From Vicugna vicugna (Eukaryota), in contig MU058198.1 of the NCBI GenBank assembly GCA_013265495.1, forward strand, positions 7,393,779-7,457,778: 64,000 bases of DNA, read 5' to 3'. Within the stretch, counting starts at the first letter, position 1; each line of letters opens with the position of its first letter. A model generated the notes under the pieces. It saw nothing but the letters and a program-made list of their open reading frames with translations. It was not told the DNA's origin and ran no database searches. Shown here piece after piece: positions 41,201-46,068 of this stretch. A program made the position numbers and the translations under genes.

Positions 41201-42398
41201 GGGGGTGACTGGTGGGGGCAGCCCAGAAAATGGAGAAGGGGCACTACTTGCCATCACCCCTCCTGCTGTGAAACGTCGGAGGGGGAGGCCCCCCAAGAAG
41301 AACAGGTCTCCAGCAGATGCTGGGCGAGGGGTGGATGAGGCACCTTCATCCACTTCTAAGGGAAAAACCAATGGGACTGACCCAGTCCCTGGGGCTGAGA
41401 CCCTTATTGTTGCGGAGCCTGTGCTGGCACCCCAGCTTATTCCTGGGCCCCAGCCTCTTGGACCCCAGCCAATTCATAGACCCGAGCCCATCATCCTATC
41501 ACCTGTGGAGAAAAGAAGGCGTGGGCGGCCCCCTAAGGCCCGAGATTTGCCCATTCCTGGGACCATTTCCTCTCCAGGGGATGGCAACCTAGAGAGCCGG
41601 ACACAGCCACTCCCGCTACCACCACCCCTGCCACCACTCCCACCACTCCTAACCTGTCCCACTGCTACTGTCGCCAACACTGTCACCACTCTCACCATTT
41701 CAACATCCCCACCCAAGCGGAAGCGGGGCCGACCTCCCAAGAATCCTCCATCACCTCGGCCCAGCCAGCTCCCTCTCTTGGACCGTGACAGTTCTTCTGG
41801 CCTCGAAAGCTATGGATCGGGGAAGCAGCGGCAACCCCAGGGCCAGGGGGAGAGTGAGGGTAGTTCCTCTGATGAGGATGGAAGCCGCCCCCTCACCCGC
41901 CTGGCCCGTTTACGGCTTGAAGCAGAGGGAATGCGGGGACGGAAGAGTGAAGGGTCCATGGTGGTGGCTGTAATTCAGGATGACCTGGATTTAGCAGATA
42001 GTGGGCCAGGCGGGTTAGAATTGACACCTCCTGTGGTCTCATTAGCTCCAAAACTGCGCTCAACCCGGCTGCGTCCAGGGTCTCTAGTCCCCCCACTAGA
42101 GACTGAGAAGGTGCCTCGCAAACGGGCAGGGGCCTCAGTTGGCGGTGGTCCTGGGCTGGCAAAGCGAAGCCGCCTGCAACCTCCAAGTCCCCTGGGGCCT
42201 GAGGGTTCAGTAGAGGAGTCAGAGGCTGAAGCCTCAGGTGAGGAGGAGGAAGGGGATGGGACACCACGCCGCCGGCCTGGCCCCCGCCGGCTTGGTGGGG
42301 TCACCAACCAAGGGGACCAGCGCATCTTGCGCAGCAGTGCCCCTCCCCACTTGGCTGGCCCTGCCATTAGTCACAGAGGCCGCAAGGCCAAGACGTGA
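14235..42398 (+). CDS. SRCAP: SRCAP, Snf2-related CBP activator protein (SWR1-type H2A.Z-exchange ATPase), 3246 aa, 32 coding exons
   Basis: Coding exons: 14235-14288, 15551-15802, 17286-17471, 17719-17859, 18628-18850, 18966-19243, 19895-19988, 20126-20215, 20715-20903, 20992-21323, 21426-21603, 22169-22305, 22603-22772, 22866-23058, 25160-25296, 25385-25571, 27070-27239, 27628-27893, 28103-28390, 28914-29078, 29358-29543, 29760-30026, 30375-31882, 34751-35016, 35153-35355, 37083-37252, 37403-37599, 37696-37810, 38016-38135, 39165-39359, 39508-39591, 39699-42398. All introns are GT-AG, phases are consistent, and the total is 9741 nt. Starts [13 protein letters not shown]. Contains the HSA domain ([16 protein letters not shown]), Snf2 motifs ([50 protein letters not shown]), a long Pro/Ser/Ala insertion splitting the ATPase, and three AT-hooks (RGRPP). 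Ends HRGRKAKT*. Confidence 0.98.
14990..15085 (-). mobile_element. tRNA-Ala-derived SINE (short form)
   Basis: TTTTTAATGGAGGTACTGGGGATTGAATCCAGGACCTTGTGCATGCTAAGCATGTACTCTGCCACTGAGCT. Confidence 0.85.
16128..16300. mobile_element. MER5A-like DNA transposon remnant
   Basis: GCAACATCAGCATTATCTGGAAACTTATTAGAAATGCAGATTC...CTCCAGATGATTCTGATGCATGCTCAAATTTGAGAGCCATTG. Confidence 0.7.
16525..16676 (-). mobile_element. tRNA-Ala-derived SINE (Vic-1-like)
   Basis: GGGGAGGTAATTAGGTTTATTTATT...GGAGGTACTGGGGATCAAACCC...CCACTGAGCTATACTCTCCCCC; same family as the 48163 and 55440 copies. Confidence 0.85.
19675..19804 (+). ncRNA. SNORA30: H/ACA box snoRNA SNORA30 (SNORA30/SNORA37 family), intronic in SRCAP
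   Basis: TAGCACTTTCACAGGTCCTCCCCCAGGCAGTGGGGCAAGGATTTGGTAGCTGGTGCTG...GGGACAGAG resembles SNORA30, which SRCAP hosts in human. Terminal stem TAGCAC/GTGCTG. Pocket strands TTTCACA and TGGTAGCT are complementary to 28S rRNA AGCUACCA-UC-UGUGGGA (sequence recalled). ACA box at 19799-19801, 3 nt from the end. Confidence 0.9.
20517..20644 (+). ncRNA. Putative degenerate SNORA30 paralogue (H/ACA-like or pseudogene)
   Basis: Shares GTAGCTGGTGCTGAAA with SNORA30. H box AAAGTA at 20575-20580, AUA variant box at 20639-20641, similar length (128 vs 130 nt), 70 nt upstream of a 3' splice site. Confidence 0.5.
22481..22570 (+). repeat. Compound pentanucleotide microsatellite (TTGTC)9(TTCTC)9
   Basis: Perfect units counted directly; ends 32 nt before the SRCAP exon starting at 22603. 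Confidence 0.95.
23360..23490 (+). repeat. Pyrimidine-rich low-complexity tract (TTCC/TTTC/Tn)
   Basis: Degenerate CCTT/TTTC runs and poly-T read directly. Confidence 0.8.
23969..24727. mobile_element. Cluster of L1 3'-end insertions in SRCAP intron 16
   Basis: Tiny antisense L1 end 23983-24034 with TSD; sense L1 3' end about 24141-24378; antisense L1 3' end 24471-24715 whose terminal ~45 nt are nearly identical to the tiny copy. Confidence 0.8.
25900..27025 (-). mobile_element. L1 (L1MB-like) fragment in SRCAP intron 18
   Basis: CATATAAGTGGAATCATACAGTATTTGTCCTTTTGTGACT; TTTGGCTATTGTGAATAATGCT; TATATACCCAGAAATGGAATTGC. Confidence 0.8.
32880..33810 (-). mobile_element. L1 (L1MB-like) fragment in SRCAP intron 25
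   Basis: GGTTCATCCATGTT, AATAATGCTGCTATGAACATT, TTTTCCAAAGTAGCTGTACC, TAATGATGTTGAGCATCTTTTCA. Confidence 0.75.
36384..36568 (+). repeat. Tandem duplication, 94 + 91 nt
   Basis: AAAAAGTCAGCAGGATTTTT(ATT)AGTATGTGCTCAATAAATAATTCAGTCAAAAATAATTTTGTAACATTTGAAACCATTCGGAATAGATGAAT occurs twice head-to-tail (36384-36477, 36478-36568), differing only by a 3-nt indel. Confidence 0.95.
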
Positions 42399-42782
42399 GT
42401 GGGCTGCCCCTCCACCTAGACTTTCCGCCATGGCCCCTCTCCCTCCACGACCAGGCCTGACTCTGTTAACCACTACTTGAAGTCTTTCGAGAGGGAGAAA
42501 TTCTCCAGGGAGACAGGGGCCTTCTCCCTTCTTTCCACCAAAGTAGGGGGTAGGCAACCGGTTGTCATGGAAACGGGGCTCTTCACATATCCCCCTTCCC
42601 TTCCACCCCACATGGCTGGGCAGTGTTAAGGGTGGCAAGATAGTCTCTGTCCCCACCCCCCTTGTACTTGATCCCCCAGCTATCTTTTACAGCCCCCCAC
42701 CCTTAGGGGAAGGGGGAGGGGCTTCTCTCTACAATGAGTTTTCTTTTTCTTTTTTTTTCTTTTTTTTTTAAGAAGAAAAAAT

Positions 42783-44439: not shown

Positions 44440-46068
44440 ATGGAGGACGAGGAAAAGGCAGTGGAGGTCTTGCTGAGCAACATGGAAGCTGCTCATTCTC
44501 CATCCCCCATTCGCTGCTGCTGGCTCCGCCTCCGCTACTTGGCAGCTACTAGCATTGTATGTGGCTGCTCTTGCCTGGGAGTCCTGGCCCTTGTGTTTGC
44601 CATCAAGGTGAGGAATGCAGTTCCTATGGGAGCAGGGGTGTGAGTGTATTAAGGCAATGGTTCTGTATACCTGATTTGTCTACATCGATCAAACAATAAG
44701 TACTTATTAAAGCTTGGCTATGGTCCTGGTGCCAGAAATAAGAATAAGACATGGTTCCTGCAGTCAAAGGGCCAACAGCCTAATGAAAGAGATGACTGTG
44801 AAAATGGGTAATTGTTAACAAAAGGCAGCTCACCAGTACTTTAATAGAGGAAGCACAGGGTATTCTGAGAGCTAGGGAGGATATGTGTGTGCAGTTATAT
44901 GTTTGTGTGTAGCAGGGTAGGTGACAGGAAAGGCATCGTAAGGGAGTGGCAAGAACGTAATCTTAAAAGATGAATGAATAAGAGTGAAAGGGTGTTCCAG
45001 GTGAAGGGAGCACAGGCAACCTGGACCATTAGTTCAGCATGACTAAACCAGTGAGGAATAATAGTGAGAGATGAAGCTGGAGGGCCCAGATTCCCGAGAA
45101 CCTCCAGTGCTGTGCTTAGGAGTTTCAGCTTTATTTAGGAAGTACTGGGGAGCCTTTCAAGGATTTTTGCAAAGGAGAACAGCATGGTCAAATTTGGGTT
45201 TCAGTAAAATCCACTCTCAGGGCCTACTACATAGAGGATGCATTGGAAGGGGCAAGACTCAGGGCAGCTGAGCAGTAATTAGACCAACCTGTAGAGTCCA
45301 GCAGAAGCTACGGGAGTTTTGAGAGGGCTTCACCACTTCAAAACATCTAACAGAGACTGCATACCTTTCAAAAGTCCACAAAGGCTAACTTAAACATCAT
45401 ACTGGAATCCCTTAACCTTAGTTATATTTTAACCAGAAGCTGTATTTTTATCATCATAAGAATTTCTGGGTTTCCTTAGGGCAAAATCATTTAAAAAAAA
45501 ATCCTTAATGGAAAAAGATGAGGCCCATTGGGCTAATGAGATATTAATTAGATGTTGTTTGATTGGACATGAGTGAAATACTCCCAAGATAGCTCACTAT
45601 TTCTTGCCATGAATTCCAAATTCTGAATGAATCTGGGATGAATAGAAAAGGATGGGGAATAAAATGACTGAAAAATACTTTCCCATAAGTGATCTTGTGA
45701 GCTAACAACAGCCATCCTGTAAAGGAGGAAGAGCAGAGTGGGTACCTTACTTTGCAGATGCGATATGAGAGAGAAACTGGAAAGAGAGGTGGACGTTGTG
45801 GGTGTGAGGTTTTGAGCCATGACAAAGATGTAGGGTTGGAGTGGGGCAGTGGGCATTTGGGGAGCAGAAGCAGGGGGAGAACCTAACCAAAAACCTACCC
45901 CCACAGGCGGAAGAGCGGCATAAGGCAGGCCGGTTGGAGGAGGCAATGCACTGGGGGGCCCGGGCCCGGAGGTTCATCCTGGCCAGCTTTGCCACCTGGC
46001 TTGCTGTCCTTATCCTGGGCCCTGTGCTTCTATGGCTGCTCTCCTACGCCATCGCCCAGGCTGAGTGA
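44440..46068 (+). CDS. TMEM265: TMEM265, small dispanin/CD225-like membrane protein, 109 aa, 2 coding exons
   Basis: Exons 44440-44607 ([56 protein letters not shown]) and 45907-46068 ([53 protein letters not shown]). Phase-0 GT-AG intron, two hydrophobic segments, syntenic between SRCAP and PHKG2. AATAAA at 46371-46376. Confidence 0.92.

What the first reader, a model, noticed from the sequence alone, without database searches (positions are those of the whole stretch)
42392..44442. Splice donor overlapping the SRCAP stop could make a bicistronic SRCAP-TMEM265 mRNA with a UGAUG stop/start overlap
Seen: SRCAP ends AAG ACG TGA GT, which contains a consensus donor AC|GTGAGT (cut after 42394) inside the last codon and stop. 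TMEM265 exon 2 begins GTGATGGAG at 44437. Joining 42394 to 44437 gives AAG AC|G TGA TG GAG. This restores the identical SRCAP C-terminus (AKT*), and the new TGA (44438-44440) shares its A with the TMEM265 ATG (44440-44442). Known: overlapping stop/start pentamers mediate termination-reinitiation in some viruses (e.g. UAAUG in influenza B M1/BM2) and are rarely described for mammalian nuclear genes. Inference: TMEM265 has no CpG island of its own and starts only about 350 nt past the SRCAP poly(A) signal, so it might be expressed by coupled translation from SRCAP read-through RNA. Reinitiation could also rescue that RNA from NMD, since the stop is 167 nt upstream of the last junction. Coincidence is possible because only the three bases before the ATG must fit.
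Basis: partly seen in the sequence, partly recalled or inferred. Interest (0 to 1): 0.75.

Follow-up and report, generated by a model that had tools for sequence, protein, structure and literature searches.

The report
SRCAP-TMEM265 read-through splicing locus
The end of the chromatin gene SRCAP holds a weak splice-donor-like site whose use would place its stop codon on the start codon of the next gene, TMEM265, but the overlap is likely a by-product of ordinary splice and start signals at a locus where the two genes' RNAs are predicted to join in several other ways.

Summary
The sequence observation is exact: donor-like GAC|GTGAGT after 42394, exon 2 at 44437, unchanged SRCAP C-terminus, TGATG at 44438-44442, stop 167 nt before the last junction. 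The junction itself is untested: no reads could be laid and it leaves no protein trace. Chance explains much: 9 of 30 SRCAP exons start N-T-R, which alone gives this overlap, and 121 of 3091 stop triplets sit in an equally good donor context. No TURBS core lies in the 40-90 nt zone. TMEM265 has a far stronger exon-1 donor (43403), and rat-like RNA assemblies show exon 1 joined to exon 2 on 243 contigs. Read-through is nevertheless supported, by other routes: NCBI models join SRCAP's penultimate exon in frame to TMEM265 exon 2 (two kangaroo rats) and SRCAP's last exon to the exon-1 region (two other rodents). Verdict: an ordinary read-through gene pair; the stop-overlapping splice is plausible as a minor, likely decay-prone isoform; coupled translation about 10%. 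Splice-made TGATG coupling has a precedent (mouse Gad1). Side leads: a predicted membrane-anchored SRCAP-TMEM265 fusion and a Floating-Harbor-like truncated SRCAP isoform modelled in six species.

The parts
39508..39591 (+). SRCAP penultimate exon; its phase-0 donor joined to 44437 is open to the TMEM265 stop (in-frame fusion)
   Evidence: fusion models P0309 and P0319 in two Dipodomys species
39699..42398 (+). SRCAP last exon, coding part with three AT-hook-like motifs, ending at TGA 42396-42398; 868 of 869 residues identical to alpaca SRCAP
40517..40608 (+). alternative acceptor inside the SRCAP last exon; shifted frame of 29 codons ends at a TGA that is itself followed by TG (a second TGATG, with only a short frame behind it)
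   Evidence: 7 NCBI models in 6 species
42257..42261 (+). nearest TGGGA (TURBS motif-1 core), 139 nt before the would-be stop, outside the 40-90 nt zone
42392..42400 (+). donor-like GAC|GTGAGT overlapping the last codon and stop of SRCAP (cut after 42394); weak, use untested
42739..42788 (+). T tract (42739-42769) and SRCAP poly(A) signal AATAAA (42783-42788)
43139..43403 (+). TMEM265 exon-1 region: acceptor-like AGs at 43138, 43159, 43221; 28-codon upstream frame from ATG 43275; strong donor CAG|GTAAGT after 43403; conserved with rabbit, rat and pygmy sperm whale; 5' end unknown
44437..44607 (+). TMEM265 exon 2: GTG then ATG (44440); TGATG at 44438-44442; G at -3 and +4
45907..46376 (+). TMEM265 exon 3: coding to 46068, poly(A) signal at 46371; CD225 (dispanin/IFITM) domain split over exons 2 and 3

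Best explanation
SRCAP and TMEM265 lie about one kilobase apart on the same strand, TMEM265 mRNA is likely made mainly by splicing the strong exon-1 donor (43403) to exon 2 and translated by ordinary scanning, and the TGATG is likely a by-product of the usual exon start and start-codon context. Shown: the anatomy, the donor strengths, exon 1 to exon 2 joining in RNA assemblies of a rat-like rodent. Predicted by other species' gene models: polymerase that passes the SRCAP poly(A) signal yields RNA that splices from several SRCAP donors into TMEM265. Inferred: the donor at the SRCAP stop is one weak competitor; if it is used, the product is a minor isoform coding normal SRCAP with a stop 167 nt before a junction, likely retained or decayed, with little TMEM265 made from it.
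For: Exon-1 donor 8.9 bits against 2.4 for 42394. Exon 1 is conserved: 36 of 44 residues match a rabbit N-extension. Logan-only 164-aa proteins that run from exon 1 into exon 2 were seen on 188 and 55 contigs, longest 1316 and 1305 nt. Of 20 Logan-only TMEM265 entries with a spliced end, 17 have a longest contig of 983-1361 nt, close to the 1295 nt from the SRCAP T tract through exons 1-3, whereas SRCAP contigs reach 5-13 kb. Of 158 SRCAP proteins over 2000 aa: 141 normal end, 2 penultimate exon fused to TMEM265 exon 2, 4 last exon joined to the exon-1 region (tail match 0 of 500 shuffles), 7 internal acceptor, 3 camel assembly models, 1 partial. Skipping the last upstream exon is the described common read-through pattern, and such RNAs are described as poorly exported or translated. 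Overlap by chance: 9 of 30 exon starts, 121 of 3091 stop triplets, 157 of 1015 ATGs; a second TGATG ends the 40517 isoform with no long frame behind it. No TURBS core in range.
Against: The 42394-44437 junction gives an unchanged SRCAP and an unchanged TMEM265, so none of the protein surveys could have seen it. Contigs break at branches, drop rare forms and can merge overlapping RNAs, so contig lengths are indirect; 3 of 20 entries have 2.8-3.5 kb contigs of unknown content. The last seven SRCAP residues are invariant in 89 of 89 sequences ending there, and 232 of 235 end exactly at that Thr; Val or a start-read codon precedes the TMEM265 Met in 19 of 19 cases; both fit joint conservation. Three camel assembly models use the 42394 donor. 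TMEM265 has no CpG island and its start site is unknown. 6 of 30 true SRCAP donors are as weak.
Confidence: 0.6

Rival explanations
1. The stop-overlapping donor is kept by selection as a regulator of SRCAP dose: splicing it to exon 2 would make a decay target, or U1 bound there without splicing would damp the poly(A) site 390 nt downstream and feed read-through into TMEM265 exon 1.
For: Stop lies 167 nt before the last junction, and every alternative acceptor tested leaves a stop 79-378 nt before a donor. SRCAP is intolerant of loss of function (pLI 1). U1 suppression of polyadenylation and retention of RNAs with 5' splice-site motifs are in print (PMC3826338, PMC9074902; search listing only). 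Invariant terminal Thr. TMEM265 contig lengths reach back to about the SRCAP T tract.
Against: Only 6 of 11 positions match the U1 consensus; a stronger donor-like site at 42237 (6.7 bits) lies in the same exon. No DNA-level conservation or decay data were obtained. A basic C-terminal motif may be conserved for protein reasons.
Confidence: 0.2
2. One reading: the 42394-44437 splice makes a bicistronic mRNA, ribosomes ending SRCAP restart one base back on the TMEM265 ATG, and this supplies a real part of TMEM265 and shields the RNA from decay.
For: Geometry exact. GTG before the ATG probably conserved: three Logan proteins start with an extra Met, as a GTG start call would give, and 16 show Val. 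Precedent of splice-made TGATG coupling in mouse Gad1, and of TURBS-free coupling in five human transcripts. Read-through at this locus appears in gene models. Camel gene finders accept the donor.
Against: No junction evidence. TGGGA is 139 nt away, outside 40-90 nt; the 156-nt end folds no better than shuffles (z -0.84); no Asp-rich tail as in CASQ2, where output was about 82-fold lower. The overlap has a chance of about 0.3 given an ATG at exon base 4. A monocistronic route exists and dominates rat-like assemblies.
Confidence: 0.1
3. The meaningful read-through product is not bicistronic but a fusion: SRCAP up to its penultimate exon (2347 residues, ATPase kept, AT-hooks lost) joined in frame through the GTG codon to all of TMEM265, a predicted membrane-anchored remodeller fragment.
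For: NCBI isoforms X6 of Dipodomys merriami (2448 aa) and X3 of D. ordii (2386 aa) show this join; the same join is open in the window; it has no premature stop, and matches the common read-through pattern. It would also explain why exactly three bases precede the ATG.
Against: 2 of 158 long SRCAP proteins, one genus, computed models; no peptide evidence; chimeric RNAs are described as mostly nuclear or poorly translated; the frame match has a 1 in 3 chance.
Confidence: 0.08

Closest known systems
Read-through chimeric RNAs of adjacent genes (cis-SAGe, conjoined genes)
   Same: Two same-strand neighbours about 1 kb apart; models join the upstream penultimate exon to downstream exon 2, the pattern described in PMC13501980 (passages; models).
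Mouse embryonic Gad1 (GAD25/GAD44) bicistronic splice form
   Same: Alternative splicing brings in an overlapping TGATG stop/start (PMC4295415 passages; PMC5972666 section 16).
   Different: Gad1 splits one gene; a putative TURBS is reported there. Here two unrelated genes would be coupled after a frame of about 3200 codons, with no TURBS core in range and no protein evidence.
Calicivirus and influenza B TURBS termination-reinitiation
   Same: Stop and start overlap by one base.
   Different: No UGGGA within 40-90 nt (nearest 139 nt); no notable structure.
CASQ2-type cellular coupled translation
   Same: Cellular mRNA, long first frame, no TURBS.
   Different: CASQ2 needs an Asp-rich C-terminus; SRCAP ends in a basic motif.
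Ensembl gene ENSG00000282034 (AC106886.5) and mouse Gm42715
   Same: Recalled, not checked, as annotated SRCAP-TMEM265 read-through models; if right, read-through at this locus is already catalogued.
   Different: Searches confirm only that the ids exist and that the human one is on chromosome 16; their exon structure was not seen.

Membership tests
Read-through chimeric gene pair | Adjacent genes, same strand, short distance | tested here: met
   SRCAP stop 42398, TMEM265 exon-1 donor 1005 nt later
Read-through chimeric gene pair | Spliced RNA joining exons of both genes | tested here: inconclusive
   6 of 158 long SRCAP proteins, NCBI models of 4 rodents, join the two genes; computed models, no reads seen, none from the window's species
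Splice-made bicistronic mRNA (Gad1 type) | Overlapping TGATG between two long frames after splicing | tested here: met
   In the predicted join only
Splice-made bicistronic mRNA (Gad1 type) | The spliced RNA exists | tested here: inconclusive
   No reads were laid; protein surveys cannot see this junction; metagenome scans gave no mammalian locus
Splice-made bicistronic mRNA (Gad1 type) | Second protein made from that RNA, dependent on termination nearby | not testable with these tools
   Needs reporter or isoform-resolved ribosome profiling
TURBS termination-reinitiation | UGGGA motif 1 within 40-90 nt upstream of the stop | tested here: not met
   Nearest TGGGA 139 nt upstream; GGGA without the leading T at 83 nt
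TURBS termination-reinitiation | Motif 2/2* stem presenting motif 1 | tested here: inconclusive
   Region folds no better than shuffles, 36 of 200 as good; motifs 2/2* are species-specific
CASQ2-type coupling | Aspartate-rich C-terminus of the first protein | tested here: not met
   Tail is basic
Decay (NMD) target | Stop more than 50-55 nt upstream of a junction | tested here: met
   167 nt in the predicted isoform; decay itself not tested
CD225 / dispanin family (TMEM265) | Pfam PF04505 above the curated cut-off | tested here: met
   Orthologue P0005 (89% identical over exon 2) scores 37.7 bits against 27.1; window exon 3 alone 16.4, exon 2 alone none, as the domain is split

The most novel reading that the evidence does not exclude
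A conserved splice donor hidden in the last codon and stop of SRCAP creates a bicistronic mammalian mRNA that couples two unrelated genes, a 3200-residue chromatin remodeller and an IFITM-family membrane protein, by TURBS-independent termination-reinitiation on TGATG; the choice among donors at this locus would switch between normal SRCAP, SRCAP plus TMEM265, and a membrane-anchored SRCAP-TMEM265 fusion lacking AT-hooks, and would bear on how Floating-Harbor truncations behave.
Probability: 0.1. Interest if true: 0.75.

Novelty: new member of a known kind. Interest (0 to 1): 0.33.

Why it matters
If the coupled model held, it would be a rare case of two separate mammalian genes translated from one mRNA by stop/start overlap after a very long frame, without the viral tether motif, and a ready test case for cellular reinitiation. 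In the likelier reading it still matters modestly: SRCAP is dose-sensitive and Floating-Harbor variants are thought to act by escaping decay in the last exons; read-through splicing adds junctions downstream of them, and natural AT-hook-less isoforms (the fusion, the 40517 form) end inside the range of disease truncations (human residues 2329-2748).

Tried and rejected
Direct junction test: one search listed 24 runs, 14 of them RNA or guessed RNA holding 40-63% of the words of 44400-46400; laid nothing, so there are no depth or joint data and those shares are not used as evidence. No genome is held for the window. Metagenome scans for orthologous DNA: none for the SRCAP end; 4 loci for exon 2, covering only 12-31 of 56 residues, rejected as chance, and that scan covered 16 of 64 parts. 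So codon-level conservation of the donor was not tested. Mapping the 18-residue Onychomys tail alone to the window was not significant (202 of 500 shuffles); only the 63-residue Psammomys tail maps (0 of 500), and Onychomys is grouped with it by a shared first 8 residues. Camel SRCAP-TMEM265 fusion proteins (P0108, P0398, P0117) use the 42394 donor but add different 4- and 14-residue mini-exons, and P0108 translates parts of intron 2; rejected as RNA evidence. Absence of SRCAP-derived N-extensions on TMEM265 is uninformative, as that frame closes 8 codons upstream with no ATG. The bacterial promoter scan does not apply. Literature searches found no paper on an SRCAP-TMEM265 RNA; supplements of four papers were searched but little text was held for three, and those of PMC13501980 were unreadable, so large chimeric-RNA tables may still list it. 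Earlier findings of this scan: none.
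Full report
Observation. 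The window is alpaca-like: the SRCAP last exon matches Vicugna pacos SRCAP at 868 of 869 residues and camels at about 99%. SRCAP ends AAG ACG TGA at 42390-42398 with GT after 42394; TMEM265 exon 2 begins at 44437. The join keeps the SRCAP end, puts TGA at 44438-44440 and shares its A with the TMEM265 ATG. The new stop is 167 nt before the exon 2-3 junction. TMEM265 is a 109-residue CD225-family protein. There is no CpG island over TMEM265.

How unlikely is it? I scored donors with a simple matrix whose frequencies are recalled. The 42394 site scores 2.4 bits, in the top 4.3% of 3603 plus-strand GT sites, against 8.9 for the TMEM265 exon-1 donor at 43403 and 6.7 for a site at 42237 in the same SRCAP exon. 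Of 30 SRCAP introns mapped on the window, 6 have donors as weak or weaker and 5 lack G at -1, so the site is usable but not strong. Stop triplets sit in such a donor often, since the consensus contains TGA or TAA: 121 of 3091. On the acceptor side any first base gives Thr, so restoring the C-terminus and making the overlap are one event that needs only T and a purine at exon bases 2-3; 9 of 30 SRCAP exons start so, and 157 of 1015 ATGs in the window have an overlapping stop before them. The product, about 0.04 x 0.3, is near 1% per such gene pair, so several cases are expected in a genome (inference). An internal control: an alternative SRCAP isoform also ends on a TGATG, at 40604, with only a short frame behind it.

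Is the junction made? Not tested directly. RNA runs holding the region were listed but no reads were laid, no genome is held, and metagenome scans gave no mammalian locus. The junction changes neither protein, so protein surveys are blind to it.

What indirect evidence shows. (a) Exon 1 is real and conserved: its frame matches 36 of 44 residues of a rabbit N-terminal extension and, with a frame change, a rat one. Logan-only 164-residue proteins, one residue or so from the named rat protein, run from exon 1 into exon 2 and were seen on 188 and 55 contigs of at most 1316 nt. Of 26 Logan-only TMEM265 entries, 20 have the spliced end, and 17 of these 20 have a longest contig of 983-1361 nt; three have 2.8-3.5 kb (two mixed-source entries left out). 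A unit from the SRCAP T tract through exons 1-3 would be 1295 nt. This suggests that exon 1 to exon 2 is the main route and that RNA cover reaches back to about the SRCAP 3' end, but contigs break at branches and merge overlapping RNAs. (b) Read-through splicing appears in gene models of other mammals. Among 158 SRCAP proteins over 2000 residues (redundant; at most 15 members listed per cluster), 141 end normally; 2 (Dipodomys merriami X6, D. ordii X3) join the penultimate exon in frame to TMEM265 exon 2 and run to its end; 4 (Psammomys X1, X2, X4; Onychomys X3) leave the last exon about 25 codons before the stop and continue in the exon-1 region, the Psammomys tail beating 500 of 500 shuffles; 7 use an acceptor at 40517; 3 are camel assembly models; 1 is partial. 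The Dipodomys join is open in the window too and is the pattern described as common for read-through RNAs (PMC13501980, passages). These are computed models; I saw no reads behind them. (c) The camel models do use the 42394 donor, but through different tiny exons that restore the frame, and one reads through parts of intron 2; they show that gene finders accept the site, not that cells use it. This fits joint conservation, but also a conserved basic tail and the ordinary AG|GT exon start with G at -3.

Mechanism of coupling. TURBS elements lie 40-90 nt before the stop and have a UGGGA core (PMC5972666, section 13 part 1). The nearest TGGGA is 139 nt away and the region folds no better than shuffles. 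TURBS-free coupling exists in human mRNAs, but in CASQ2 it needs an Asp-rich tail and gives about 82-fold less protein (section 16); SRCAP ends in a basic motif. At such rates reinitiation would hardly clear the downstream junction mark, so rescue from decay is unlikely (inference). The ATG has G at -3 and +4, good for normal scanning.

Best explanation (0.6): an ordinary, tightly packed read-through pair; TMEM265 comes mainly through exon 1; the stop-overlapping donor is a weak competitor giving at most a minor, likely decay-prone isoform; TGATG is incidental. Rivals: regulatory use of the donor for SRCAP dose or 3' end control (0.2), coupled translation (0.1), a functional in-frame fusion (0.08).

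Known context. Splice-made TGATG coupling is described for mouse Gad1 (PMC4295415, passages), so the mechanism would be a new member, not a new kind. Nine searches listed no paper on SRCAP-TMEM265 RNA; 3 papers hold both names, once each (listing only). I recall ENSG00000282034 and Gm42715 as read-through models of this pair; passages and supplement rows (PMC11580990; PMC10740163) confirm only the ids. Passages of PMC11167863, PMC9638104 and bioRxiv 2023.02.24.529734 mention TMEM265 expression only. Supplement searches of PMC11128028, PMC13429570 and PMC7038929 found nothing in the little text held; unseen tables may list the junction. PMC8206150 (passages) gives the Floating-Harbor range and the decay-escape model. 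PMC9074902, PMC3826338 and PMC13187750 were seen as search listings only.

Verdict. Observation true, interpretation partly supported, decisive junction test open. Interest 0.33; the coupled reading has about 10% and would deserve 0.75.

Noticed in passing
window 39591 or 39746 to 40517-40606: Alternative acceptor inside the SRCAP last exon gives a 2357-2390-residue SRCAP without AT-hooks in 7 NCBI models of 6 species (wild camel, two dolphins, warthog, mink, star-nosed mole); it ends within the range of Floating-Harbor truncations and, being in the last exon, would escape decay. The camel tail matches the window at 29 of 29 residues.
   Followed up: partly
window 39591 to 44437: In-frame SRCAP-TMEM265 fusion (ATPase kept, AT-hooks lost, CD225 membrane anchor added) modelled in two Dipodomys species and open in the window.
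   Followed up: partly
window 44607 to 50829-51038 and PHKG2 (start near 51560): Read-through continues downstream: carnivore TMEM265 isoform X2 ends in a frame just before PHKG2 (P0001, P0002), and bat and manatee models fuse TMEM265 exon 2 to the PHKG2 kinase (P0010, P0020).
   Followed up: no
window 43275-43403: TMEM265 exon 1 holds an ATG in the TMEM265 frame, closed by TGA at 43359 here but open in rabbit and pygmy sperm whale (153-residue forms); the non-coding exon is strikingly conserved.
   Followed up: partly
window about 42320 to 43160: Gerbil-family and grasshopper-mouse models splice from a site about 25 codons before the SRCAP stop into the exon-1 region, replacing the invariant basic tail; in the window the matching site is GC, not GT.
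   Followed up: partly
window 42237: A donor-like CAG|GTGAGG inside the SRCAP last exon is much stronger (6.7 bits) than the one at the stop; joined to exon 2 it would add 38 out-of-frame residues; no model uses it in the proteins seen.
   Followed up: partly
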